Shown here: positions 205-26,077 of the stretch, piece after piece
How positions within the stretch are numbered: the stretch's first letter is position 1
Layout of the letters: each line of letters opens with the position of its first letter
Origin: a virus
IMG/VR virus record: IMGVR_UViG_3300044712_002679
Coordinates: 180,406 to 244,405 of that record
Direction: 5' to 3' (one strand)
Length of the DNA: 64,000 nt
Notes under the pieces: model-generated
What the model saw: the letters and a program-made list of their open reading frames with translations, nothing else
Told to the model about the DNA's origin: nothing
Database searches by the model: none
Position numbers and translations under genes: made by a program

Positions 205-1230
205 ATGTTAAAAAATAAATTTTTAAAAACAAAAGAATGTGAAATATGTGGAAAAAATTTTAATGGTATTAGTGAAAATTCTGATTATAGGTTATTTTTA
301 AGTCACTTAAAAAATGAACACAATATATCATATGAAGATTATTATACTAAATATTATTTGAATGGTATTAAGCCGAAATGCGAATGTGGGTGTGGTAACG
401 TTACAAAATATTATAAAGGTGAATTTAATAAATATTATGGTGATCATAAAAATAAAACTTTACCAAAAAATAGTTCTATTAATAAAATAAAAGAAAAATT
501 AAAAATTGTAAATAATTTAGAAAATAGATTAATAAAATTAAATTTAACAATTAATGATATCGAAGATGCTTGGGATGATTTTATAAATTTAAATAAATCT
601 ATGTCAATGATTTCAAAAGATTTATCTATTGATTTTAGAACACTTAAAAGTTATTGGTTTGAATTGAAATTAATAGATAATAAAGAAGTTTTTAAGAGAT
701 TTACGTTAAAATCAAAAACAAAATGGTTAAATAAAATAGTTGAACCAAATGATGATAAAAAAGAATATTTAAAAAGTTTAATTCCAAATATTCATAAATA
801 TTTGGAAAATAGAAATAATGTTACAATTGATGAATTAGTTAAGTTTTTTAAATTAGATATTAATAAAAATTATTTTTGTTTATTTTTAGATGATCAATTA
901 AATAATAATGAAATATCAAAAATTAAATTTTTCAAATCATCAAATATTGAAATAGAATTTTTTAATGTTTTGCGGTTTTATTTTGGAAATAGTATAATAC
1001 ATAGTTTTGAATTAGAACATAAAATATTTGACTTTAAATTAGGTAAAAAAATTTTAATAGAATTAGATGGAGAATATTGGCATAATTTTGAACAGTCAAA
1101 GATAAATGATAAATTAAAAAATGAAATCGCTTTAAAAAATGGATATGTATTAATACGTATTAGTGATAAAAATATAAATGATTTAGATAATTTAATAAAA
1201 ATAAAAAAATTATATGACAAATTTAAGTAA
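205..1230 (+). CDS. Free-standing homing-endonuclease-like protein: N-terminal Zn-finger-like Cys/His clusters and a C-terminal Vsr/DUF559-like PD-(D/E)xK nuclease domain
   Basis: 341-aa ORF. C-terminal block ILIELDGEYWHNFEQSKINDKLKNEIALKNGYVLIRISD matches the E-DG-WH..R pattern of Vsr-like endonuclease domains. It sits between the two halves of a split intein. Confidence 0.6.
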   Translation: MLKNKFLKTKECEICGKNFNGISENSDYRLFLSHLKNEHNISYEDYYTKYYLNGIKPKCECGCGNVTKYYKGEFNKYYGDHKNKTLPKNSSINKIKEKLKIVNNLENRLIKLNLTINDIEDAWDDFINLNKSMSMISKDLSIDFRTLKSYWFELKLIDNKEVFKRFTLKSKTKWLNKIVEPNDDKKEYLKSLIPNIHKYLENRNNVTIDELVKFFKLDINKNYFCLFLDDQLNNNEISKIKFFKSSNIEIEFFNVLRFYFGNSIIHSFELEHKIFDFKLGKKILIELDGEYWHNFEQSKINDKLKNEIALKNGYVLIRISDKNINDLDNLIKIKKLYDKFK

Positions 1231-1348
1231 ATATAAACTTGTTGAAATAAAAACGAAAAAAATCGTAAATGATAAAATTCATAAAGTATATGATTTATCA
1301 GTTGAAGATAATCAGAGTTATACAGCAAATAAAATAATTGTTCATAAT
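1214..1348 (+). other. Split-intein C-terminal fragment (IntC, 45 aa) with its own Met start
   Basis: MTNLSKYKLVEIKTKKIVNDKIHKVYDLSVEDNQSYTANKIIVHN, followed by Cys+1. It is closely patterned on DnaE IntC (VYDIGVE.DHNF..NG.IASN), with the terminal HN and a downstream Cys nucleophile. Confidence 0.7.
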
Positions 1349-1924
1349 TGTCTTACATCAAAAAATGTTGGTGTTGGATATCCAATGGCATCATTAATTA
1401 AAGAATGTTATGATATTAGTTGCACATTAGATAAACCAGCAAAGATTGTTGCTGATGGTGGAATGAAAAATTATTCGGATATCATTAAAGCATTGGGTCT
1501 TGGGGCAGATTATTGCATGGTCGGTTCAATTTTTAATCGAGCATTAGAAAGTGCAGGTGAAACATATAAAGCAAATGTTAAACACGTGGGTGTTGAAACT
1601 TGGACTGAACCAGGTGAACCAGTTGATCAATTTTCTGACGATGTGAAAAATGCATTTTTAAATGGTGCTAAATATTTCAAAAAATTTAGGGGTATGAGCA
1701 CAAAAAGTGTTCAAAAATTGCTTGGGAATAAGGTTTTAACGACTTCAGAAGGTGTTACACGTATGAACCAAGTAGAATATACCCTTGAAGGTTGGACTGA
1801 AAATTTTACCCATTATTTGGCTTCTGCAATGTCATATTCAGGTGCTAAAACATTAGATGATTTTATTGGTAAAGCTGATTTTGTTAAAATAACACAGAAC
1901 AGTTTTAATAGATTTAATAAGTAA
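1214..1924 (+). CDS. C-intein plus C-extein of a GMP reductase / IMPDH-family enzyme (C-terminal half of a fractured gene)
   Basis: After VHN|C the extein reads CLTSKNVGVGYP...IVADGG...GADYCMVGS...FRGMSTKS.... This matches the GuaC/IMPDH catalytic-Cys segment (GSxCTTR..GVGYPQ..DGG..GAD.VMLG..YGMSS). Confidence 0.7.
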   Translation: MTNLSKYKLVEIKTKKIVNDKIHKVYDLSVEDNQSYTANKIIVHNCLTSKNVGVGYPMASLIKECYDISCTLDKPAKIVADGGMKNYSDIIKALGLGADYCMVGSIFNRALESAGETYKANVKHVGVETWTEPGEPVDQFSDDVKNAFLNGAKYFKKFRGMSTKSVQKLLGNKVLTTSEGVTRMNQVEYTLEGWTENFTHYLASAMSYSGAKTLDDFIGKADFVKITQNSFNRFNK

Positions 1925-2949: not shown

Positions 2950-3366
2950 ATGAGTATACAAGAAACAATAAAAAATGACTTAGTGGTAGCCATGAAGTCT
3001 AAAAATGTAGAAACAACATCTTTATTGAGAGTTGTTTTAGGTGAATTCAGTACTGTAGCTAGTCGAATGCCAAATAATTCTGAAAAAGTATTATCTGATG
3101 ATTTAGCACTTAAAGAAATCCGAAGAATGTATGAAAATGCGAAAATGATGCAAAACCAATTCGAAATTGATACATTAGATAAATATCTTCCTAAAATGCT
3201 TTCCGAAGACCAAATCAAAAATATTATAGTAACTATAATATCTGAAAAAAATATTTCAGGTATACAAAATATGGGTAAAGTTATGGGTGAAATTAAACTT
3301 CTTCCTACTGCTAGTATGATAGATAACAAAATCGCCAGTAATATAGTTAAAGAACTATTAAAATGA
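2950..3366 (+). CDS. GatB/YqeY-domain protein
   Basis: MSIQETIKNDLVVAMKSKNVETTSLLRVVLGEF... resembles the YqeY/GatB C-terminal domain N-terminus (MSLKEQIKEDMKTAMKAKD..L..IR). Confidence 0.5.
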   Translation: MSIQETIKNDLVVAMKSKNVETTSLLRVVLGEFSTVASRMPNNSEKVLSDDLALKEIRRMYENAKMMQNQFEIDTLDKYLPKMLSEDQIKNIIVTIISEKNISGIQNMGKVMGEIKLLPTASMIDNKIASNIVKELLK

Positions 3367-6204: not shown

Positions 6205-6294
6205 TGCGGTGTGGAGAAGTTGGTCATCTCACCTGTCTCATAAGCACGGAGTCCCTAATAAGGTTTAACACAGGTTCAAATCCTGTCGCCGCTA
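6205..6294 (+). pseudogene. Diverged copy of the initiator tRNA gene (anticodon loop CTCATAA) with a broken anticodon stem and about a 21-nt insertion
   Basis: Shares TGCGG.G...CGCCGCTACA ends and the D-arm GAGAAGTTGGTCATCTC with the adjacent tRNA-fMet. T-arm ACAGGTTCAAATCCTGT. The 3' strand of the anticodon stem does not pair. Confidence 0.3.
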
Positions 6295-6550: not shown

Positions 6551-6597
6551 ATTAAAATTGTTCTTTGACATATTGGGAAATAAAATAAAATGATGTA

Positions 6598-6660
6598 ATT
6601 AATCGTCCGATTATCGGATGATTGTTCAAAAAATCGGATGATTTTCGGGCGATTAATTAA
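6598..6660. repeat. Long inverted repeat (taattaatcgtccga ... tcgggcgattaattaa) enclosing direct repeats of atcggatgatt
   Basis: A 14-15-bp stem with one mismatch. Located between tRNA genes. Confidence 0.4.
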
Positions 6661-6662
6661 AT

Positions 6663-6748
6663 GTTGCGGTATGCAAATGGCCTAAGCGAACAGACTTTCA
6701 TTCTGTACTTCTGAAAAGAAGTTGCGGGTTCGACTCCCGTCCGCAATA
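6663..6748 (+). tRNA. Type-II (long variable arm) tRNA with anticodon UUC (Glu), which is non-canonical. Discriminator A73
   Basis: Acceptor GTTGCGG/CCGCAAT, 3-bp D-stem, anticodon stem ACAGA/TCTGT with loop CTTTCAT, variable hairpin ACTTC-TGAAAA-GAAGT, T-arm GCGGGTTCGACTCCCGT. Confidence 0.5.
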
Positions 6749-6756
6749 CTTTTTTA

Positions 6757-6830
6757 TGCTGCTTTCGTATAATTGGAATAGTACCTCAGACCTCAATCTG
6801 GAAAATACGGGTTCGAGTCCCGCAGGCAGT
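6757..6830 (+). tRNA. tRNA-like sequence with a good T-arm. The acceptor and anticodon could not be resolved
   Basis: T-arm CGGGTTCGAGTCCCG at 6806-6822. Confidence 0.2.
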
Positions 6831-6836
6831 ACATTT

Positions 6837-6908
6837 GGCGCATTCGTCTAACGGTTAGGACGTTTGGTTTTCAACCAAAAAATGGGATTTCGATTATCCC
6901 ATGCGCTA
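6837..6908 (+). tRNA. tRNA-Glu (TTC)
   Basis: Acceptor GGCGCAT/ATGCGCT, D-arm GTCTAACGGTTAGGAC, anticodon stem TTTGG/CCAAA with loop TTTTCAA, T-arm GGGATTTCGATTATCCC. Confidence 0.8.
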
Positions 6909-6984
6909 CTAATGAATAAAGAAAACATTCAGCAAACAAAAATTGACTGCAAATCAAACAAAACCGTTTTCTGTTTCATATTTT

Positions 6985-7068
6985 GGTCTCGGGGGCTGCT
7001 TGGTGTGGCCGCCTGCCTGTCACGCAGGAACCGTAAGGATCAGGAGGGTTCGAATCCCTTCGGGACCG
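6985..7068 (+). tRNA. tRNA-Asp (GTC) with an unusual 15-nt variable region
   Basis: Acceptor GGTCTCG/CGGGACC, anticodon stem CCTGC/GCAGG with loop CTGTCAC, insert AACCGTAAGGATCAG before the T-arm GAGGGTTCGAATCCCTT. Confidence 0.55.
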
Positions 7069-7079
7069 CATTTAAATTG

Positions 7080-7170
7080 GGGTGCGTTGCTTCATGGGGT
7101 CTGTAAAACCCTTCTGCGTTAACAAAATAGAAGCTGGTGGCAGTTTTGAGGTTCAATTCCTTCGTATCCC
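7080..7170 (+). tRNA. D-arm-less tRNA-like gene with a Tyr-type anticodon hairpin (GTA)
   Basis: Acceptor GGGTGCG/CGTATCC, a 9-nt linker, hairpin GGGGT-CTGTAAA-ACCCT, a 35-nt region with a D-loop-like GCTGGTGGC, T-arm GAGGTTCAATTCCTT. Confidence 0.35.
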
Positions 7171-7192
7171 ACAAATTGAACGCAAATTATAT

Positions 7193-7265
7193 GGTGAAGA
7201 AGCTAGTATGGTACAGCTACGGTCTGTTAAACCGAGGATAGTGGGATCGTTACCCACCTTCACCG
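7193..7265 (+). tRNA. tRNA-Asn (GTT)
   Basis: Perfect acceptor GGTGAAG/CTTCACC, D-arm GCTAGTATGGTACAGC, anticodon loop CTGTTAA, T-arm GTGGGATCGTTACCCAC. Confidence 0.75.
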
Positions 7266-7322
7266 CAATATACTGTACTTCGAGAAGAAGGTAATGATAA
7301 GAATCATTCAGTACTATTTTTT

Positions 7323-7398
7323 GGTGCGTTGAGCGTACATGAGTACGAACCTGGCTGTCACCCAGGTAAAACTAGGGGTTCGATACCCCTACGCACCG
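7323..7398 (+). tRNA. tRNA-Asp (GTC)
   Basis: Perfect acceptor GGTGCGT/ACGCACC, anticodon stem CCTGG/CCAGG with loop CTGTCAC, T-arm AGGGGTTCGATACCCCT. Confidence 0.75.
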
Positions 7399-7403
7399 CA
7401 AAC

Positions 7404-7485
7404 TGTGGTGTATTCAGCCGATCCTGATAAGATCGAGAACTTGTAATTGGTATTGTAAATGTGGGTTCAAGTCCCACCACCACAA
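7404..7485 (+). tRNA. D-arm-less tRNA-like gene with an Ile-type anticodon hairpin (GAT)
   Basis: Perfect acceptor TGTGGTG/CACCACA, an 8-nt linker, hairpin CGATC-CTGATAA-GATCG, a 25-nt region containing GTAATTGGTAT, T-arm GTGGGTTCAAGTCCCAC. Confidence 0.45.
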
Positions 7486-7650
7486 CATTTAGACAACAAC
7501 GGGGGACTTTAGTTATCTCAATGGTTATCAGCATGAGGTATCTAAAATAGTTTAGTGATATTTTTTCGTAAATATTAAAACCTATTTGAAATCTTATTCG
7601 TATTAATAAACAACTTAGAAAATAAGAAAAATTAAATAAAGCTGATTTAT

Positions 7651-7735
7651 GGAAGTATTGGGCAACTGGTTGCCTAGCGGGCCGTAACCCCGTGATCTTA
7701 CGATATTGGGGGTTCGAATCCCTCTGCTTCCACCA
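7651..7735 (+). tRNA. tRNA with a 13-nt variable region, anticodon probably GTA, CCA encoded
   Basis: Acceptor GGAAGTA/TGCTTCC then ACCA. D-arm GGGCAACTGGTTGCC, anticodon stem GCGGG/CCCGT with loop CCGTAAC (C33 is unusual), T-arm GGGGGTTCGAATCCCTC. Confidence 0.5.
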
Positions 7736-7788
7736 TCGAAAATAACAAAAAATGACTTTATTTATTTAATATATAGAATAAAAACTAA

Positions 7789-8494
7789 TATGAAAAATAA
7801 ATGGTCAAAAAATAACTTATTTGATGTTATTAATACATCAAATAATAAAATTGAAGTTTTAACAAAACTTAAATTAACAATATTTACGGGAAATTATGAT
7901 ACATTAAATAAATACATTAAAAAATATAATATAGATATATCACACTTTAAACGAAATCATAATATAGATAATTTAAATAATTTTAAAAAAATTGATTTAA
8001 AAAATATATTAGTAGAAAATTCAACCTATAGTCGATCTAAATTAAAAGAAAGATTATATAAAGAAGGTTTAAAAGAAAGAAAATGTGAAAAATGTGGGCA
8101 AGATGAAGAATGGAATGGTGATCATATTAGTTTAATTCTAGATCACATCAATGGTATTAATGATGATAATAGAATAGAAAATTTAAGAATACTTTGTCCA
8201 AATTGTAATGCTACATTAGACACACATTGTGGAAAAAATGTTAAAGATAAAAGCAAAACAAATATAACTATCAAAACAAAAAATGACAAATATTGTTTAT
8301 GTGGTAAGAATATAGACAAAAGATCAAAAAAATGCAAATCTTGTAATAACATAGAATTATCTATATTGCAACGTAAAGTTGAAAGACCAACATATGATAC
8401 ATTATTAAAAAATATTGAAGATTTTGGATATTCTGGTACAGGAAGAATATATAATGTAAGTGATAATACAATACGAAAATGGATAAAAAAATAA
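7789..8494 (+). CDS. HNH homing endonuclease, paralogous to 25232-26077
   Basis: CEKCGQDEEWNGDHISLILDHINGINDDNRIENLRILCPNCNATLDTHCGKN is an HNH/Zn motif. The likely start is MKNKWS at 7789, downstream of the tRNA at 7651-7735. It is embedded in the tRNA cluster, like segB in the T4 tRNA region. Confidence 0.7.
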
Positions 8495-8495
8495 A

Positions 8496-8580
8496 GGGGG
8501 TATCGCATAGCGGCAATTGCAATTGACTGTAAATCAATCGTCTTATGGCTTCGTAGGTTCGAGTCCTACTACCCCCACCA
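8496..8580 (+). tRNA. tRNA-Tyr (GTA), bacterial type II with a long variable region, CCA encoded
   Basis: Acceptor GGGGGTA/TACCCCC then ACCA. Anticodon stem ATTGA/TCAAT with loop CTGTAAA, a 14-nt variable region, T-arm GTAGGTTCGAGTCCTAC. Confidence 0.75.
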
Positions 8581-8584
8581 AATT

Positions 8585-8656
8585 GGAAGTGTAGCTCAGA
8601 GGCAGAGCGTTTGCCCGTTAAGCAAGGGGTCGAGATTTCGAAATTCTCCATTTCCG
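8585..8656 (+). tRNA. tRNA, anticodon probably GTT (C33 in the loop CCGTTAA is unusual)
   Basis: Acceptor GGAAGTG/CATTTCC, D-arm GCTCAGAGGCAGAGC, T-region GAGATTTCGAAATTCTC. Confidence 0.5.
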
Positions 8657-8660
8657 CAAT

Positions 8661-8733
8661 GGTGTTGTAGTTCAGTGTGTAGAATAAGGCGTTGTCTGCG
8701 CCAAGGTCGTGAGTTCGAGTCTCATCAGCACCG
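8661..8733 (+). tRNA. tRNA, anticodon unresolved (loop TTGTCTG)
   Basis: Acceptor GGTGTTG/CAGCACC, T-arm GTGAGTTCGAGTCTCAT. Confidence 0.5.
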
Positions 8734-8738
8734 CATAA

Positions 8739-8812
8739 GGTAGTGTAGCTCAGTTGGTTAGAGCGGCGGACTGTTAATCCGTAGGTCGGGGGATCGTAAC
8801 CCTCCACTACCG
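8739..8812 (+). tRNA. tRNA-Asn (GTT)
   Basis: Perfect acceptor GGTAGTG/CACTACC, D-arm TAGCTCAGTTGGTTAGAGC, anticodon region GGCGGACTGTTAATCCGTA identical to E. coli tRNA-Asn. Confidence 0.8.
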
Positions 8813-8822
8813 CAAAATTATT

Positions 8823-8906
8823 GCACAATTGGTCGAGTGGCTTAGGCAACGGTCTGCAAAATCGTAACGGAGAAATCCTACGGGGGTTCGAATCCCTCAT
8901 TGTGCT
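8823..8906 (+). tRNA. tRNA with anticodon GCA (Cys) and discriminator U73, but a Leu/Ser-type D-arm and a 15-nt variable arm
   Basis: Perfect acceptor GCACAAT/ATTGTGC, D-arm GTCGAGTGGCTTAGGC, anticodon stem ACGGT/ATCGT with loop CTGCAAA, variable hairpin GGAGAAATCC, T-arm GGGGGTTCGAATCCCTC. Confidence 0.55.
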
Positions 8907-8950
8907 CTTTTTAAATAAAAACAAATTCAAATTATTTATATGTTAAAAAT

Positions 8951-9034
8951 ATCGTAGTGCGCAGAGTTGGTCTATTGCAGTGGGCTCATATCCCACCATC
9001 TTTGATATCGTGAGTTCGAATCTCACCTACGATA
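8951..9034 (+). tRNA. tRNA with a CAT anticodon (elongator Met or Ile2 type) and a 13-nt variable region
   Basis: Perfect acceptor ATCGTAG/CTACGAT, anticodon stem GTGGG/CCCAC with loop CTCATAT, T-arm GTGAGTTCGAATCTCAC. Confidence 0.55.
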
Positions 9035-9127: not shown

Positions 9128-9205
9128 ATCGGTGTATCTCAACTGGCTTATACCCAGGCATAACTGAGTAATTGGTGTATGTGGGTTCGAGTCCCACCTC
9201 CGATA
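9128..9205 (+). tRNA. D-arm-less tRNA-like gene with an anticodon hairpin TAT (Ile-AUA type)
   Basis: Acceptor ATCGGTG/CTCCGAT, an 8-nt linker, hairpin CTGG-CTTATAC-CCAG, a 23-nt region containing GTAATTGGTGT (same motif as 7404-7485), T-arm GTGGGTTCGAGTCCCAC. Confidence 0.4.
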
Positions 9206-9394: not shown

Positions 9395-9403
9395 CAATAA
9401 TTT

Positions 9404-9541
9404 GGGGAAGATGGCAATGGTTTACATTATTATGATAATTCTAATAAAAATGTACAATTTATTAATCATGATATGTAAATTGGCAAGCAAGGAAGGCTCG
9501 TACACCTTCTACCTGAAAAGGTTACTGTTGGTTCGAATCCA
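9404..9541 (+). tRNA. tRNA-like gene interrupted by about a 70-nt structured insertion (intron-like or pseudogene)
   Basis: Acceptor GGGGAAG...TCTCCCC, T-arm GTTGGTTCGAATCCAGC. The insert tttacatt...atgtaaa carries inverted repeats. Confidence 0.4.
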
Positions 9542-9557
9542 GCTCTCCCCACAAAAT

Positions 9558-9719
9558 AATTTTATTTGGAGAAATAGCTCAGTTGGTAGAGCAACGTAAA
9601 AAGAAAAAAACGTAATTTGTATTTGATATTCGAAGTCAAAAAATTAAAAATTATGTACAGCAAACCAAAATCTAAGCATGTAAAGCCGTGTGTCGGGGGT
9701 TCAAGTCCTTCTTTCTCCA
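9558..9719 (+). tRNA. tRNA-like gene with about a 95-nt insertion between the D-arm and T-arm
   Basis: Perfect acceptor GGAGAAA/TTTCTCC, canonical D-arm TAGCTCAGTTGGTAGAGCA, T-arm GGGGGTTCAAGTCCTTC. Internal candidate anticodon hairpin TTGAT-ATTCGAA-GTCAA (TCG). Confidence 0.4.
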
Positions 9720-9738
9720 CGAATATGTTTTTAAAATT

Positions 9739-9814
9739 GGGGTATGGCTTAGTCGGGTCTAAAGCAACTGTGACTGATGTGCAGGAGATCATTGGTTCGA
9801 ATCCAGTTGCCCCT
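9739..9814 (+). tRNA. tRNA, anticodon unresolved
   Basis: Acceptor GGGGTAT/TTGCCCC, D-arm GCTTAGTCGGGTCTAAAGC, T-arm ATTGGTTCGAATCCAGT. Confidence 0.5.
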
Positions 9815-9857
9815 ACAAAATGATAACTTATCAGATTTATATATACAAATAAAAAGT

Positions 9858-10895: not shown

Positions 10896-10965
10896 CGTGA
10901 CATAGGTCAGGGGTAGACCGCTGGTGCGAAACCAGAAGTCGGTGGTTCGAGTCCATCTGTCGCAA
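10896..10965 (+). tRNA. tRNA, anticodon unresolved (loop TGCGAAA)
   Basis: T-arm GGTGGTTCGAGTCCATC, acceptor CGTGACA/TGTCGCA, D-arm GGTCAGGGGTAGACC. Confidence 0.45.
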
Positions 10966-10966
10966 C

Positions 10967-11114
10967 GAAGATTCCTGGCAGTGGTGATGTCAGCTACACA
11001 GGTAGGTGTGGTGTCTTAACAGACTAAGTTAATGTAAAAATTTAAAATTAGTTGAATAATATTGCGCATAAAAATTTAATGAAATTAAATTAGGTTCGAA
11101 TCCCTTGATCTTCA
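10967..11114 (+). tRNA. tRNA-like gene with about a 75-nt insertion
   Basis: Acceptor GAAGATT/GATCTTC with a T-loop GGTTCGAATCCCTT. The ends are 148 nt apart. Confidence 0.35.
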
Positions 11115-12473: not shown

Positions 12474-12554
12474 GCCTCAGTATTAGCACTGTCTTCGAAA
12501 CAGTAGTCGTATAGCGGATAATGAAAAACGTGGGTTCGAATCCCTCCTGGGGTA
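12474..12554 (+). tRNA. D-arm-less tRNA-like gene with an Arg-type anticodon hairpin (TCG)
   Basis: Acceptor GCCTCAG/CTGGGGT with two G:U pairs, a 7-nt linker, hairpin ACTGT-CTTCGAA-ACAGT, a 25-nt region with ATAGCGGATA, T-arm GTGGGTTCGAATCCCTC. Confidence 0.4.
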
Positions 12555-24943: not shown

Positions 24944-25015
24944 TGCTTTTTAATGTAATGGTTAGCATATAACACTTTGACTGTTAGAGTCTTGGTTCGA
25001 ATCCAAGGGAGGCAA
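24944..25015 (+). tRNA. tRNA-Gln-like (TTG) with a G:U-rich acceptor
   Basis: Acceptor TGCTTTT/GGAGGCA, D-arm ATGTAATGGTTAGCAT, anticodon stem TAACA/TGTTA with loop CTTTGAC, T-arm CTTGGTTCGAATCCAAG. Confidence 0.5.
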
Positions 25016-25027
25016 CAAAACAAAAAT

Positions 25028-25098
25028 AGCCTTGTAGCATAATGAAGTGCTCCATCCTTTGAAGATGTAAGGTATCGGTTCAAGTCCGATCAAGGCTT
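25028..25098 (+). tRNA. tRNA-Gln (TTG)
   Basis: Perfect acceptor AGCCTTG/CAAGGCT, D-arm GCATAATGAAGTGC, anticodon stem CATC/GATG with loop CTTTGAA, T-arm ATCGGTTCAAGTCCGAT. Confidence 0.75.
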
Positions 25099-25099
25099 C

Positions 25100-25171
25100 A
25101 ATCTTTTGGTGTAATGGTCAGCATATAATTTTCTGAAATTTAAGATATTGGTTCGATTCCAATAAAGATTA
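25100..25171 (+). tRNA. tRNA-Gln (CTG), probable
   Basis: Perfect acceptor AATCTTT/AAAGATT, D-arm GTGTAATGGTCAGCATAT, anticodon loop TTCTGAA, T-arm ATTGGTTCGATTCCAAT. Confidence 0.55.
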
Positions 25172-25231
25172 CAAATGTCCATAGTGGTATTTTTTCGATA
25201 TTTTTTATTTATATATAAATAAAAAAACACT

Positions 25232-26077
25232 ATGGACAAAATTTTAAAACAATTTGGAAAAGATAAACTTATAGAAGCAGTAAACGAATCTAATTCTTTT
25301 GTTGAAGCAACATCTTTTTTAGGATTAGATGCAAAAAATACTAACATTAAAAAGAATGTGGAAAGATCAATTAAAAGATTAGGATTATCCACAGAACACT
25401 TTGAAAGTGTCAAACGAGTAAAAGATGCTAAAACTAGATACACAAAAGAAAAATTAGAATCGCTTGTTATAAAATGTAAAAATTATAAAGAAATTTTAAT
25501 TGAATTGGATGTTTTACCTATTGATAATAATTATAAAAAATTAAAATCTGAATTATATCGTTATAAAATTGATTTTTCACATTTAAAAAATCAAAAAATA
25601 TCAACAATTAAAGTAAATTGGGCAAAAGAAGTTTTGGAACCAATATTTAAAAAATCATTATCCCAAAAAGAAGTTTTAGAAAAATTAGGATTAAGATCTG
25701 CTGGTGGTAATTTTAATACTTTACGAAAATATATAAAATTATATAATTTAGATAGTTCTCATTTTATTAAAAATTATGATTCTATGTGCAATGTTAGTAA
25801 AAATAAAAAAATTCCTTTAGATCAAATTTTAGTTGAAAATTCGACATATGATAGAACACATCTTAAAGATAGATTATATAAAGAAGGATTAAAAGAAAGA
25901 AAATGTGAAATGTGTGAACAAGATGAAAATTGGCATGGTAAACGTATGAGTTTGATTATTGATCACATAAATGGTATTCATAATGACAATAGATTAGAAA
26001 ATTTAAGAATTATTTGTCCTAATTGTAATGCAACATTAGACACACATTGTGGAAAAAATAATAAAAAAGCCAGATAA
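25232..26077 (+). CDS. HNH homing endonuclease, paralog of 7789-8494
   Basis: CEMCEQDENWHGKRMSLIIDHINGIHNDNRLENLRIICPNCNATLDTHCGKN. Shares ILVENSTY..LK.RLYKEGLKERKCE with the paralog. Immediately downstream of the tRNA-Gln genes. Confidence 0.7.
   Translation: MDKILKQFGKDKLIEAVNESNSFVEATSFLGLDAKNTNIKKNVERSIKRLGLSTEHFESVKRVKDAKTRYTKEKLESLVIKCKNYKEILIELDVLPIDNNYKKLKSELYRYKIDFSHLKNQKISTIKVNWAKEVLEPIFKKSLSQKEVLEKLGLRSAGGNFNTLRKYIKLYNLDSSHFIKNYDSMCNVSKNKKIPLDQILVENSTYDRTHLKDRLYKEGLKERKCEMCEQDENWHGKRMSLIIDHINGIHNDNRLENLRIICPNCNATLDTHCGKNNKKAR

What the first reader, a model, noticed from the sequence alone, without database searches (positions are those of the whole stretch)
6663..9034. tRNAs with expanded variable regions, including type-II bodies carrying Glu (UUC) and Cys (GCA) anticodons
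The gene at 6663-6748 folds as a classic long-arm (type II) tRNA, but its anticodon loop CTTTCAT reads UUC. A canonical tRNA-Glu sits 90 nt downstream. The gene at 8823-8906 has a Leu/Ser-type D-arm (GTCGAGTGGCTTAGGC) and a 15-nt variable hairpin, yet its loop is CTGCAAA (GCA) with discriminator U73, the CysRS identity set. The tRNA-Asp at 6985-7068 has a 15-nt variable insert. The CAT-anticodon tRNA at 8951-9034 has a 13-nt variable region. A long variable arm is the main SerRS identity element, and LeuRS is also anticodon-independent. Such chimeras could therefore be mis-acylated (recoding or mistranslation), or could evade host tRNA-targeting nucleases.
Basis: seen in the sequence. Interest (0 to 1): 0.65.

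Follow-up and report, generated by a model that had tools for sequence, protein, structure and literature searches.

The report
Phage tRNAs carrying an extra arm
A very large, AT-rich phage encodes glutamate, cysteine, methionine and aspartate tRNAs with an extra hairpin normally seen only in leucine, serine and tyrosine tRNAs; related phages keep the hairpin through compensating mutations, so these look like working genes, probably charged with their normal amino acids rather than causing mistranslation.

Summary
ARAGORN and the Rfam tRNA model call all four genes at the stated coordinates, each with a 13-17 nt variable region. The window is part of a 501-kb, 23% GC, T4-like huge phage.

These are not chance folds or recent wrecks:
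- The long-arm Glu(UUC) gene belongs to a family of 10 distinct sequences. Members occur in related marine contigs, in two published huge phages and in cultured Klebsiella phages. 20 of 25 base pairs, including all four variable-arm pairs tested, show compensatory change.
- The long Cys(GCA) and CAU genes are syntenic in relatives, and their variable hairpins also covary.

The mis-acylation reading is not favoured:
- The acceptor end follows the anticodon, not the body type. Glu genes have G1·U72 (16/17) and A73 (17/17), whether short or long. Cys genes always have U73, Asp genes G73, and Tyr genes G1-C72.
- SerRS determinants are mostly absent.
- GAA is the phage's third most used codon.
- In Klebsiella phage KP13-26 the long-arm gene fills the only Glu slot in the part of its tRNA array that I read (19 tRNAs).

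Charging has not been tested. The long arm breaks the E. coli GluRS "augmented D helix" rule, so LeuRS or TyrRS charging is not excluded. The same array also holds conserved tRNA-like genes without a D arm.

The parts
6663..6748 (+). Type-II tRNA with UUC (Glu) anticodon. G1·U72, A73, 3-bp D stem, variable stem CTTCT/AGAAG with GAAA loop.
   Evidence: ARAGORN. Rfam 48 bits. Family model R1 94.4 bits. Covariation. MFE fold.
6758..6831 (+). Class-I Glu-type paralog with a 6-nt anticodon loop (CCTCAA). Shares the G1·U72/A73 acceptor end.
   Evidence: Paralogs in relatives have 7-nt loops CTTTCAC and CCTTCAC.
6837..6908 (+). Canonical 72-nt tRNA-Glu(UUC), also G1·U72/A73.
   Evidence: (61.9 bits).
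6985..7068 (+). tRNA-Asp(GUC) with G73, G10 and C38, and a 15-nt variable region.
   Evidence: (38 bits). It is a class-I Asp lineage (G8G9, same D arm as an Asp gene of LR756501) with 7 extra nt in the variable region. The L003 homolog is degenerate.
8823..8906 (+). Type-II tRNA with GCA (Cys) anticodon. G1-C72, U73, variable hairpin GGA-GAAA-UCC.
   Evidence: 50 bits. 97-98% identical in relatives whose neighbouring protein is only 76% identical. Divergent syntenic copies have covarying variable stems.
8951..9034 (+). CAU-anticodon tRNA (elongator Met or Ile2) with A73 and a 13-nt variable region (AUC-UUU-GAU).
   Evidence: 47.1 bits. Five divergent syntenic versions: 95.2% paired, 19/25 pairs with compensatory change.
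6205..6294 (+). Initiator-like CAU tRNA (U1·U72) with a 21-nt variable region and a bulged anticodon stem.
   Evidence: (45.1 bits). 95-96% identical in L003 and 85-86% in L053. I infer a compensatory C27-G44 to U27-A44 change from the sequences.
7651..7732 (+). Bacterial-type (type-II) tRNA-Tyr(GUA), G1-C72/A73. Used as the in-array reference for a native long arm.
8496..8577 (+). Second type-II tRNA-Tyr(GUA).
7404..7485 (+). Conserved tRNA-like gene without a D arm. GAU anticodon loop, 25-nt region between the anticodon and T arms with hairpin UAAU-UGGU-AUUG.
   Evidence: 98.4% paired, 6 compensatory pairs, invariant linkers.
9128..9205 (+). tRNA-like gene of the same D-arm-less style with a UAU anticodon loop.
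   Evidence: I read the helix CTCA/TGAG in the window against CCCT/AGGG in L053 from the sequences.
12474..12554 (+). Arg(UCG) tRNA-like gene of the same D-arm-less style.
   Evidence: Rfam 31.6 bits. 86-92% conserved in L004, L005 and L056.
6565..6594 (+). Sigma-70-like promoter match (TTGACA, 18 nt, AATGAT) about 70 nt upstream of the long-arm Glu gene.
   Evidence: This is a consensus match only. The total number of such sites in the region is not above the shuffle expectation.

Best explanation
These are functional decoding tRNAs of a huge T4-like phage, built on type-II or otherwise variable-arm-expanded bodies. They probably still accept the amino acid specified by their anticodon (Glu, Cys, Met, Asp).

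Shown:
- They fold as tRNAs.
- The extra arm is kept by compensatory substitutions across divergent phages.
- Their discriminator base and first base pair follow the anticodon, not the body type.

Inferred:
- Host or phage-encoded GluRS, CysRS, MetRS and AspRS recognise them through the anticodon and the acceptor end.
- The arm is tolerated because the variable region is the one part of a tRNA that can vary in length.
- For class I synthetases the variable region faces solvent. This is from my own knowledge and was not tested here.

The array supplies the phage's most used codons (AAT, GAA, GAT, TAT, ATT, ATA).

The likely selective value, also inferred, is a body shape different from host tRNAs. 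That would let phage translation survive tRNA-directed nucleases or other tRNA-targeting factors.

There seem to be two origins:
- An old, horizontally spread type-II Glu family, and probably the Cys and CAU families as well.
- Recent insertions into class-I genes (Asp, Arg(ACG), initiator-like Met).
For: Gene calls: ARAGORN and Rfam detect all four genes.

Glu family:
- Model R1 separates 10 long-arm Glu genes (78-100 bits) from every other tRNA (at most 61.6 bits). Three of the 10 were not used to train the model: LR756502, LR756500 and Klebsiella phage KP13-26.
- Counted on the 8 members then known: 96.4% of cells are paired and 20/25 pairs have changes on both sides. The variable helix is 4/4 compensatory. 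0/500 shuffles reach these values.
- Nearest neighbours of long-arm Glu genes are always other long-arm Glu genes.

CAU family: 95.2% paired, 19/25 compensatory pairs, variable helix 4/4.

Cys-long:
- 97-98% identical between phages whose adjacent protein is 76% identical.
- Divergent copies have variable stems GGA/UCC, GAU/AUC and UAGA/UCUA.

Synteny: the order Met90, Glu-long, Glu ... Cys-long, CAU-long recurs in L053 and L056, with Ile(GAU) following in L056, L002 and the window.

Acceptor-end table:
- Glu: 16/17 G1·U72 and 17/17 A73. This covers 9 short and 8 long genes.
- Tyr: 11/11 G1-C72.
- Cys: 6/6 U73 (2 short, 4 long).
- Asp: 13/13 G73.
- Gln-long has U1-A72/G73.

Codon use: GAA is 65.6 per 1000 codons, rank 3.

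KP13-26: the 6-kb stretch read holds 19 tRNA genes for 17 different amino acids. The only Glu gene (89 nt) and the only Asn gene (85 nt) in that stretch are long-arm genes.

Precedent: a long-arm tRNA with U73 and a GCA or UCA anticodon (selC* tRNACys) was cysteinylated in vitro and translated an opal codon as Cys in E. coli when paired with an engineered CysRS variant (PMC5389517).
Against: - No aminoacylation or expression data exist for any of these genes.
- E. coli GluRS uses the augmented D helix (U11-A24, U13-G22:A46, no nucleotide 47) as a major determinant (PMC9976931). A 15-20 nt variable arm and the D stems seen here do not satisfy that rule.
- A73 plus a type-II core is what E. coli LeuRS needs. 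The window's Glu gene also has A15 and U48.
- U35 + A73 + long arm overlaps the TyrRS set.
- The nuclease-evasion benefit is inferred from context only. That context is RtcB next to L026's long-arm Glu genes and published cases of phage tRNAs escaping anticodon nucleases (PMC10264068, PMC11555353, PMC11464382).
- Some lineages have lost the long Glu gene (L051, L003), so it is dispensable.
- The one relative with an Asp-long homolog (L003) has a degenerate copy.
Confidence: 0.55

Rival explanations
1. Identity-mismatched tRNAs. The type-II body is charged by an anticodon-blind or partly anticodon-blind enzyme (LeuRS, TyrRS or SerRS). GAA, UGY and other codons are then partly read as Leu, Tyr or Ser, giving deliberate mistranslation or recoding as with nematode nev-tRNAs.
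For: - Glu-long has A73 in every member: 8/8 in the table, and the KP13-26 and LR756500 sequences also end in A73. It also has a true type-II D arm, and the window copy has A15 and U48.
- E. coli LeuRS needs A73 plus tertiary elements, not the anticodon or the arm (PMC9976931).
- TyrRS uses A73 and U35, and both are present.
- The E. coli GluRS augmented-D-helix determinant is not met.
- nev-tRNAs are class-II tRNAs with Gly or Ile anticodons that are charged only with Leu (PMC3333845).
Against: - Acceptor ends follow the anticodon, not the body. Long Glu genes share G1·U72 with short Glu genes and differ from Tyr, which is 11/11 G1-C72. Cys-long is always U73.
- SerRS determinants G73, C72, G2-C71 and C11-G24 are absent from Glu-long. 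G73, G2-C71 and C11-G24 are absent from Cys-long, which does have C72. I compared the sequences with the table.
- A20a is absent, and A15:U48 is not conserved across the family.
- GAA is the third most frequent codon, whereas nev-tRNAs match rare codons.
- In KP13-26 the long gene is the only Glu gene in the 19-tRNA stretch read, which covers 17 amino acids.
Confidence: 0.15
2. These are not decoders. The expanded tRNAs act as decoys or sponges for tRNA-targeting nucleases or toxins, or as regulatory or structural RNAs, and are not used by the ribosome.
For: - The array contains several conserved tRNA-like genes that look unfit for decoding. Examples are a 6-nt anticodon loop at 6758-6831, a hypervariable anticodon loop at 10896-10965 (CGA, AGC or GGA in relatives) and bodies without a D arm.
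- Many allo-tRNAs appear not to be used in translation (PMC5389517).
- RtcB lies next to the long-arm Glu genes in L026.
Against: - The long-arm genes keep 7-nt loops with U33, the exact anticodon and A37. They also keep 7/5 acceptor/T geometry and isotype-specific discriminators. Those constraints are expected for decoding and charging.
- They fill isotype slots in the array stretches read: Cys and elongator CAU in this window, Glu and Asn in KP13-26.
Confidence: 0.12
3. Neutral junk. Insertions accumulate in the only length-tolerant part of fast-evolving, duplicated phage tRNA genes. Some copies, especially Asp-long, are on their way to becoming pseudogenes.
For: - Asp-long and Arg(ACG)-long are class-I genes with 7- and 11-nt insertions, with weak or no hairpins.
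- The L003 Asp-long homolog has lost its anticodon arm.
- The array clearly contains interrupted genes at 9403-9553, 9568-9730 and 10966-11110.
- Long Glu is absent from L051 and L003.
Against: - Compensatory changes maintain the variable stems of the Glu, Cys and CAU families across very divergent phages.
- Cys-long is far more conserved than the neighbouring protein-coding DNA.
- The Glu family spans marine huge phages, huge phages that PMC7162821 predicts to infect Bacteroidetes, and Klebsiella and Citrobacter phages.
Confidence: 0.1
4. The extra nucleotides are an intervening sequence removed from the mature RNA, leaving an ordinary class-I tRNA.
For: - Other genes in the array do carry large AT-rich insertions. 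L004 2246-2376 scores 43.9 bits as a tRNA with a roughly 57-nt insert.
- RtcB-type ligases occur in such phages.
Against: - The Glu and Cys genes also have the matching type-II D arm (3-bp stem, 10-11 nt loop), not just an insert.
- The inserts are short, G+C-balanced hairpins with GNRA loops, like native Ser and Tyr arms.
- I know of no splicing mechanism for variable-region inserts in bacteria. This is from my own knowledge.
Confidence: 0.03

Closest known systems
Nematode nev-tRNAs (PMC3333845)
   Same: Class-II (long variable arm) tRNAs whose anticodons are not Leu, Ser or Tyr. They are conserved within a lineage.
   Different: nev-tRNAs derive from tRNA-Leu, are charged only with Leu, and match rare codons. 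Here the acceptor ends match the anticodon's own isotype. The Glu gene reads the third most used codon. The carriers are phages.
selC* tRNA-Cys of anaerobic bacteria (PMC5389517)
   Same: A long-arm tRNA with U73 and a GCA anticodon. It was cysteinylated in vitro and translated an opal codon as Cys in E. coli. It is the best precedent for the gene at 8823-8906.
   Different: selC* tRNAs are tRNA-Sec-like, with 8/4 acceptor/T geometry, a longer anticodon stem, and linkage to selB*/cysS*. The phage gene has 7/5 geometry, a 5-bp anticodon stem and a 3-bp variable stem, and sits in a phage tRNA array.
allo-tRNAs (PMC5389517)
   Same: Bacterial and phage-associated long-arm tRNAs with many non-Ser anticodons.
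   Different: allo-tRNAs have 8/4 or 9/3 geometry, a long D stem with a tetraloop, and G73 or U73. They are predicted or shown to be SerRS substrates, or to be inactive. The phage genes here are 7/5 with isotype-matched discriminators.
Bacterial type-II tRNA-Tyr
   Same: The body plan is the same: 3-bp D stem, large D loop, 3-5 bp variable stem, A73. The Cys-long T arm (GGGGGTTCGAATCCCTC) is identical to that of the array's Tyr genes. The Glu-long D arm (TATGCAAATGG) is nearly identical to the TATGCAAATTGG of the Tyr genes in L002 and L053.
   Different: The anticodon differs, and the first base pair is G·U or A-U rather than G-C. Overall identity to Tyr is only about 0.67-0.69, so descent from Tyr is a lead, not shown.
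Phage tRNAs that escape anticodon nucleases (PMC10264068, PMC11555353, PMC11464382)
   Same: Phage-encoded isoacceptors that differ from host tRNAs and keep translation going when host tRNAs are attacked. The isotypes involved overlap (Lys, Tyr, Glu, Gln, Asn, Asp, Arg).
   Different: Known cases rely on anticodon-loop substitutions. Here the difference is a whole extra arm, and no nuclease or resistance has been shown.

Membership tests
tRNA (Rfam RF00005) | Cloverleaf scoring above the family gathering score (29 bits). | tested here: met
   48.0, 38.0, 50.0 and 47.1 bits for the four genes, all full-length model matches.
Type-II (class II) tRNA body | Variable region of more than 10 nt forming a stem-loop, together with a 3-bp D stem and an enlarged D loop. 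| tested here: met
   Met for Glu-long and Cys-long. The CAU-long and Asp-long genes keep a 4-bp D stem, so they are class-I bodies with an expanded variable region.
Type-II (class II) tRNA body | Anticodon for Leu, Ser, Tyr (bacteria) or Sec. | tested here: not met
   The anticodons are UUC, GCA, CAU and GUC.
SerRS substrates (bacterial Ser identity set, PMC9976931) | G73, C72, G2-C71, C11-G24, large variable arm. | tested here: not met
   Glu-long has A73, U72, Y2-R71 and 11-24 as G-C or A-U. Cys-long has U73, C2-G71 and U11·G24. Only the long arm, plus C72 in Cys-long, is present.
LeuRS substrates (E. coli Leu identity, PMC9976931) | A73, A15:U48, correctly placed G18G19, A20a. | tested here: inconclusive
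   Glu-long: every member ends in A73. A15 and U48 are present in the window copy but G15 and C48 in L020. Position 20a is C, not A (my reading of the sequences). Cys-long has U73, so it does not meet the set.
CysRS substrates (bacterial Cys identity, PMC9976931) | U73 and anticodon G34 C35 A36. | tested here: met
   All 4 distinct long Cys genes and both short ones have U73 + GCA. The E. coli-specific G15:G48 and G2-C71/C3-G70 are not present. By my reading the window gene has G15 with C48, C2-G71 and A3-U70.
GluRS substrates (E. coli Glu identity, PMC9976931) | U34 U35 C36 A37 in the anticodon loop. | tested here: met
   The loop is CUUUCAU or CUUUCAA, except CUUUCAC in LR756500 and CUCUCAA in the one CUC member.
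GluRS substrates (E. coli Glu identity, PMC9976931) | Augmented D helix: U11-A24, U13-G22:A46, no nucleotide 47. | tested here: not met
   The variable region is 15-20 nt, and 11-24 is G-C or A-U. Whether the real host's GluRS, or a phage GluRS, uses this rule is unknown.
AspRS substrates (bacterial Asp identity, PMC9976931) | G73, G10, G34 U35 C36, C38. | tested here: met
   The gene at 6985-7068 has loop CUGUCAC, G73 and D stem GGCU/GGCC starting with G10.
allo-tRNA / selC* tRNA-Cys (PMC5389517) | 8/4 or 9/3 acceptor/T-stem geometry. | tested here: not met
   All long-arm genes here fold with 7-bp acceptor and 5-bp T stems, 100% paired in the alignments.
nev-tRNA (PMC3333845) | Derived from tRNA-Leu, charged with Leu, matches rare codons, nematode-specific. 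| tested here: not met
   The carriers are phages. GAA is codon rank 3. Nearest neighbours are other long Glu genes, not Leu. Charging cannot be tested with these tools.

The most novel reading that the evidence does not exclude
Large phages maintain a parallel set of structurally re-engineered tRNAs that work as a semi-orthogonal translation kit.

- One part is type-II-bodied Glu, Cys, Met, Asn, Gln, Lys and His tRNAs.
- The other part, in this lineage, is decoders without a D arm, in which a variable-region hairpin with a UGGU loop replaces the D arm.
- They would be charged through the acceptor end and anticodon, in some phages by the phage's own synthetase. LR756502 has a GluRS homolog about 19 kb from its long-arm Glu gene.
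- They would be invisible to host or phage-deployed tRNA-targeting nucleases that read tRNA shape.

If the genes without a D arm decode on bacterial ribosomes, that would be a tRNA architecture not described outside organelles.
Probability: 0.2. Interest if true: 0.85.

Novelty: new variant of a known kind. Interest (0 to 1): 0.62.

Why it matters
Textbook tRNA biology restricts the long variable arm in bacteria to Leu, Ser, Tyr and Sec, where it serves as an identity or shape mark. Here a conserved long-arm family carries Glu anticodons and Glu-type acceptor ends, and parallel families exist for Cys, CAU, Asn, Gln, Lys and His. They occur in uncultured huge phages and also in cultured Klebsiella and Citrobacter phages.

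- If they are cognately charged, GluRS, CysRS and others tolerate a type-II core. That would revise the "augmented D helix" rule, and these tRNAs would be natural scaffolds for orthogonal tRNA engineering.
- If they are mischarged, they would be the first viral case of programmed missense decoding at a major codon.
- Either way they give a concrete, testable handle on why large phages carry their own tRNA sets, and on whether tRNA shape is part of the phage-host conflict over tRNA cleavage.

In eight full-text searches of the held library I found no paper describing these phage genes.

Tried and rejected
- **Giant virus of eukaryotes.** The 23% GC, glycosyltransferases and orphan genes suggested this. 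I rejected it because of a gp32 family match, HNH and PHROG matches, bacterial-type long-arm tRNA-Tyr, and synteny with phage contigs.
- **Altered genetic code.** Rejected: TAA, TGA and TAG all end ORFs (47/17/4), and no suppressor tRNA is present.
- **Close relatives in INPHARED by megablast.** Only generic tRNA-Met and tRNA-Asn hits.
- **IMG/VR.** Two protein-based scans and three DNA-pattern scans found nothing.
- **Epimerase homolog search.** It gave only uninformative bacterial-like hits. This was a wasted search.
- **Long-arm Glu pattern in 185,579 bacterial and archaeal species genomes.** 14 hits, none a tRNA-Glu. This argues the family is not cellular, but the pattern demanded a GAAA loop and fixed T-loop bases, so sensitivity is limited.
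- **The window's own contig.** It was not present in either the viral or the metagenome DNA collection, so the rest of the 501-kb genome could not be read. That includes any synthetase genes.
- **Asp-long as a decaying gene.** I first read it this way because it has G8 and G14 instead of U8 and A14. I softened that view after finding the same G8G9 and D arm in an Asp gene of LR756501.
- **ARAGORN mitochondrial mode.** It did not recognise the elements without a D arm, apart from a spurious 49-nt call.
- **Phage GluRS as a general explanation.** Rejected: LR756502 has one, but no Klebsiella phage appeared in the GluRS tblastn search.

Full report
**What the window is.** The 64-kb window is 17-36% G+C, about 23% outside the tRNA array. 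It uses all three stop codons. It encodes a gp32-like ssDNA-binding protein, HNH and homing endonucleases, sugar-modifying enzymes, two HD-domain proteins, a P-loop kinase and a stand-alone YqeY-domain protein. One of its proteins lies on a 501,337-bp JGI contig. Together with syntenic contigs of up to 400 kb, this identifies a huge T4-like phage. ARAGORN finds 25 tRNA genes, 22 of them in one plus-strand array between 6.2 and 12.8 kb.

**Check of the observation.** All four flagged genes are called by ARAGORN at the stated positions, with the stated anticodons. All four match the Rfam tRNA model full-length, at 48.0, 38.0, 50.0 and 47.1 bits against a gathering score of 29.
- Glu(UUC), 6663-6748: a true type-II layout, with D stem UGC/GCG, an 11-nt D loop, and variable region ACUUCUGAAAAGAAGUU. 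Unconstrained folding recovers the cloverleaf plus a 6-bp variable hairpin, z = -2.77.
- Cys(GCA), 8823-8906: D arm GUC-GAGUGGCUUA-GGC, variable hairpin GGA-GAAA-UCC, and U73.
- CAU gene (8951-9034) and Asp gene (6985-7068): 13- and 15-nt variable regions on otherwise class-I bodies with 4-bp D stems.
- No tool produced a competing fold with a short variable loop.
- A canonical Glu(UUC) lies at 6837-6908. A third Glu-type gene with a 6-nt anticodon loop lies at 6758-6831.

**Relatives.** INPHARED megablast and IMG/VR gave nothing close. Homologs of two small ORFs inside and next to the array led to Logan, ENA and JGI contigs with syntenic arrays.
- Cys-long is 97-98% identical in contigs whose adjacent 334-aa protein is only 76% identical. 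More distant phages carry it with different stems but always G1-C72, U73, loop CUGCAAA and a variable hairpin. The stems are GGA/UCC, GAU/AUC and UAGA/UCUA.
- The CAU gene next to it exists in five versions. Their acceptor, anticodon, T and variable stems all differ by compensatory changes: 95.2% paired, 19/25 pairs changed on both sides, 0/500 shuffles as high.

**The long-arm Glu family.** A degenerate pattern scan of JGI metagenomes found three independent contigs with long-arm Glu(UUC). One of them also has a long-arm Glu(CUC), and it lies about 5 kb from RtcB and SSB genes on the same contig.
- Syntenic relatives L053 and L056 carry the gene at the same place as the window.
- BLAST found further members in the 642-kb phage LR756502, the 462-kb LR756500, five Klebsiella phage records and Citrobacter phage Tr1. 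In the Klebsiella records it is already annotated "tRNA-Glu", 89 nt with CCA.
- A covariance model built from seven sequences scores ten distinct members at 78-100 bits, three of them untrained. Every other tRNA scores at most 61.6 bits.
- On the eight-member alignment, 96.4% of cells pair and 20/25 pairs show changes on both sides. All four variable-stem pairs covary. G1·U72 and U3-A70 are invariant.
- The same pattern found no tRNA-Glu in 185,579 cellular species genomes.
- The long-arm Glu gene is therefore a conserved family, so far found only in phages and phage-like contigs. It is not an accident of this window.

**Which amino acid?** I compared the genes with the published identity sets (PMC9976931).
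- SerRS: the main determinants other than the arm are absent from Glu-long (G73, C72, G2-C71, C11-G24). Cys-long has C72 but lacks the other three.
- CysRS: the two dominant determinants, U73 and GCA, are present in every long Cys gene. A long-arm U73/GCA tRNA was cysteinylated in vitro and used to read an opal codon as Cys in E. coli (selC*, PMC5389517).
- AspRS: the Asp gene has G73, G10, GUC and C38.
- Glu: the anticodon-loop determinants (U34 U35 C36 A37) are present. The E. coli "augmented D helix / no nucleotide 47" determinant is not.

The strongest internal evidence is a table of 144 distinct phage tRNAs.
- Genes with Glu anticodons have G1·U72 in 16/17 cases and A73 in 17/17, whether 72-76 nt (9 genes) or 84-89 nt (8 genes).
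- The array's native type-II Tyr genes are 11/11 G1-C72.
- Cys genes are 6/6 U73. Asp genes are 13/13 G73. The long Gln gene has U1-A72/G73.
- The acceptor end therefore follows the anticodon, not the body. That is what cognate charging predicts and what a Ser, Leu or Tyr chimera does not.

Two further points argue the same way.
- GAA is the third most used codon, 65.6 per 1000. This is unlike nev-tRNAs, which match rare codons and are Leu-charged (PMC3333845).
- In the 6-kb KP13-26 stretch read (19 tRNA genes, 17 amino acids), the only Glu and Asn genes are long-arm genes.

I therefore favour cognate charging at 0.55. LeuRS or TyrRS charging of the UUC tRNA is not excluded, because it has A73, U35 and a type-II core, at 0.15.

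**Origins.** Pairwise comparison shows two routes.
- Long Glu genes are always closest to other long Glu genes across very different phages, so this is an old family.
- Asp-long, and the Arg(ACG)-long gene of L053, are class-I lineages with 7- and 11-nt insertions in the variable region. The 90-nt CAU gene looks like an initiator-like tRNA (U1·U72), because its shorter relative in L051 is closest to the window's initiator gene.
- Cys-long shares its exact T arm with the array's Tyr genes. Glu-long shares its D-arm sequence, bar one base, with the Tyr genes of L002 and L053. This hints at remoulding from tRNA-Tyr, but overall identity is only about 0.67-0.69, so it is a lead.
- Most long-arm anticodons found have U35, like Tyr GUA: UUC, CUC, GUC, GUU, GUG, UUU, CUU and UUG. 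This fits either descent from Tyr or a link to the split-box tRNAs that anticodon nucleases attack. I cannot separate the two.

**Why keep an extra arm?** This part is inference.
- The array supplies the phage's top codons.
- Several anticodons are present in multiple, structurally different copies: three Glu, four Asp, three Asn and three CAU.
- tRNA-repair or tRNA-related genes lie nearby in this window and in related contigs.
- Published work shows phage tRNAs rescuing translation from PrrC-like, PARIS and retron nucleases through sequence differences (PMC10264068, PMC11464382, PMC11555353).
- A different body shape could serve the same end, or could mark phage tRNAs for phage enzymes. Huge phages encode their own synthetases (PMC7162821). 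LR756502 has a GluRS homolog about 19 kb from its long Glu gene. The Klebsiella phages do not, so a dedicated synthetase is not a general requirement.

**Beyond the finding.** The array holds other conserved oddities.
- Most notable are tRNA-like genes without a D arm at 7404-7485, 9128-9205, 12474-12554 and probably 7079-7171.
- The 7404 family is 89-100% conserved. Its acceptor stems are fully compensatory, and it has a compensatory change both in the anticodon stem and in a variable-region hairpin whose loop is UGGU. Its single-stranded linkers are invariant.
- These may be more unusual than the long arms. I followed them only partly.

**Verdict.** The mistranslation interpretation is not favoured, and the nuclease-evasion idea remains open. 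The genes are a new variant of a known kind, namely long-arm tRNAs with non-canonical anticodons (nev-tRNA, allo-tRNA, selC* tRNA-Cys). They differ by standard 7/5 geometry, isotype-matched acceptor ends, high-use codons and phage carriage. Eight full-text searches found no paper describing them.

Noticed in passing
window 7404-7485 (also L003 2690-2771, L051 11460-11541, L053 12390-12471, L056 15039-15120): tRNA-like gene without a D arm. It has a 7-bp acceptor stem, the 8-nt linker TAYTCAGC, an anticodon arm with loop CTGATAA (GAU), then AGAACTTG, a hairpin TAAY-TGGT-RTTG, and a T arm. It is 89-100% conserved, with compensatory changes in the acceptor, anticodon and hairpin stems, and invariant linkers. 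The UGGU loop may stand in for the D loop.
   Followed up: partly
window 9128-9205, 12474-12554, 7079-7171: Three more genes in the same D-arm-less style, with UAU, UCG and GUA anticodon loops. In the UAU family a 4-bp helix (CTCA/TGAG in the window, CCCT/AGGG in L053) encloses the anticodon hairpin and is followed by a D-loop-like TAATTGGT. The UCG gene is 86-92% conserved in three relatives.
   Followed up: partly
window 10896-10965 (L002 4016-4085, L004 2585-2655, L005 3045-3114): A 70-nt tRNA-like gene with a C1xA72 mismatch. Its body is 88-92% conserved, but its anticodon loop differs in each relative (TGCGAAA, GGAGCAA, TGGGAAG) and often lacks U33. ARAGORN names it Ser, Ala or Ser accordingly.
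   Followed up: partly
window 9403-9553, 9568-9730, 10966-11110: tRNA genes interrupted by AT-rich inserts. One has a 43-nt insert in the D loop, flanked by the inverted repeat TTTACAT/ATGTAAA, plus an 8-nt anticodon loop CTCGTACA. A second has an insert of about 95 nt in the anticodon region; its L004 homolog, with a shorter insert, still scores 43.9 bits as a tRNA. The third has a disrupted T stem.
   Followed up: partly
window 6758-6831: Glu-type tRNA with a 6-nt anticodon loop (CCTCAA). Its paralogs in relatives have 7-nt loops CTTTCAC (L051) and CCTTCAC (L056, C33 instead of U33).
   Followed up: partly
window 9738-9815 (L051 11791-11869): ARAGORN calls this "tRNA-Ser(UGA)". It has a short variable region, a U1·U72 mismatch and loop ACTGATG, which lacks U33 and a purine at 37. 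It is 94% conserved in L051, so the Ser anticodon sits on a non-Ser body.
   Followed up: no
L062 (Klebsiella phage KP13-26, OP617743.1 73117-73201 and 73921-74009); L063 (LR756500.1); L064 (LR745206.1); L056 15128-15214, 15997-16086, 18421-18508; L053 13750-13836: Long-arm versions of other class-I isotypes occur in other phages. These are Asn (85-90 nt), His (84 nt), Lys UUU/CUU (84-87 nt), Gln (88 nt) and Arg ACG (87 nt).
   Followed up: partly
LR756502.1 408566-410017: Full-length GluRS homolog (29.9% identity to E. coli GltX, E = 5e-57) about 19 kb from that phage's long-arm tRNA-Glu at 389161-389246.
   Followed up: no
window 2950-3366: Stand-alone YqeY/GatB-tail-like protein (PF09424, E = 3.9e-17). 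It is also present about 1.5-2 kb upstream of the array-flanking marker ORF in the close relatives L050-L052. Pfam named no YqeY gene in the more distant L053 and L056 loci. It could be a tRNA-binding factor.
   Followed up: no
window 205-1924: The IMPDH/GMP-reductase-like gene upstream of the array appears to be interrupted. ORF 1214-1924 starts with an intein-splicing motif followed by the IMPDH C-terminal part. ORF 205-1230 has weak HNH-endonuclease similarity. Relatives have an uninterrupted 342-376 aa gene.
   Followed up: no
window 7790-8494 and 25232-26077: HNH homing-endonuclease genes are inserted inside or beside the tRNA arrays. The first lies between the two Tyr genes, and the second follows the Gln cluster at 24944-25172. 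This resembles SegB in the T4 tRNA region.
   Followed up: no
window 6612-6650: Direct repeat ATCGGATGATT occurs twice between a promoter-like site (6565-6594) and the long-arm Glu gene. It may be a regulator-binding site.
   Followed up: no
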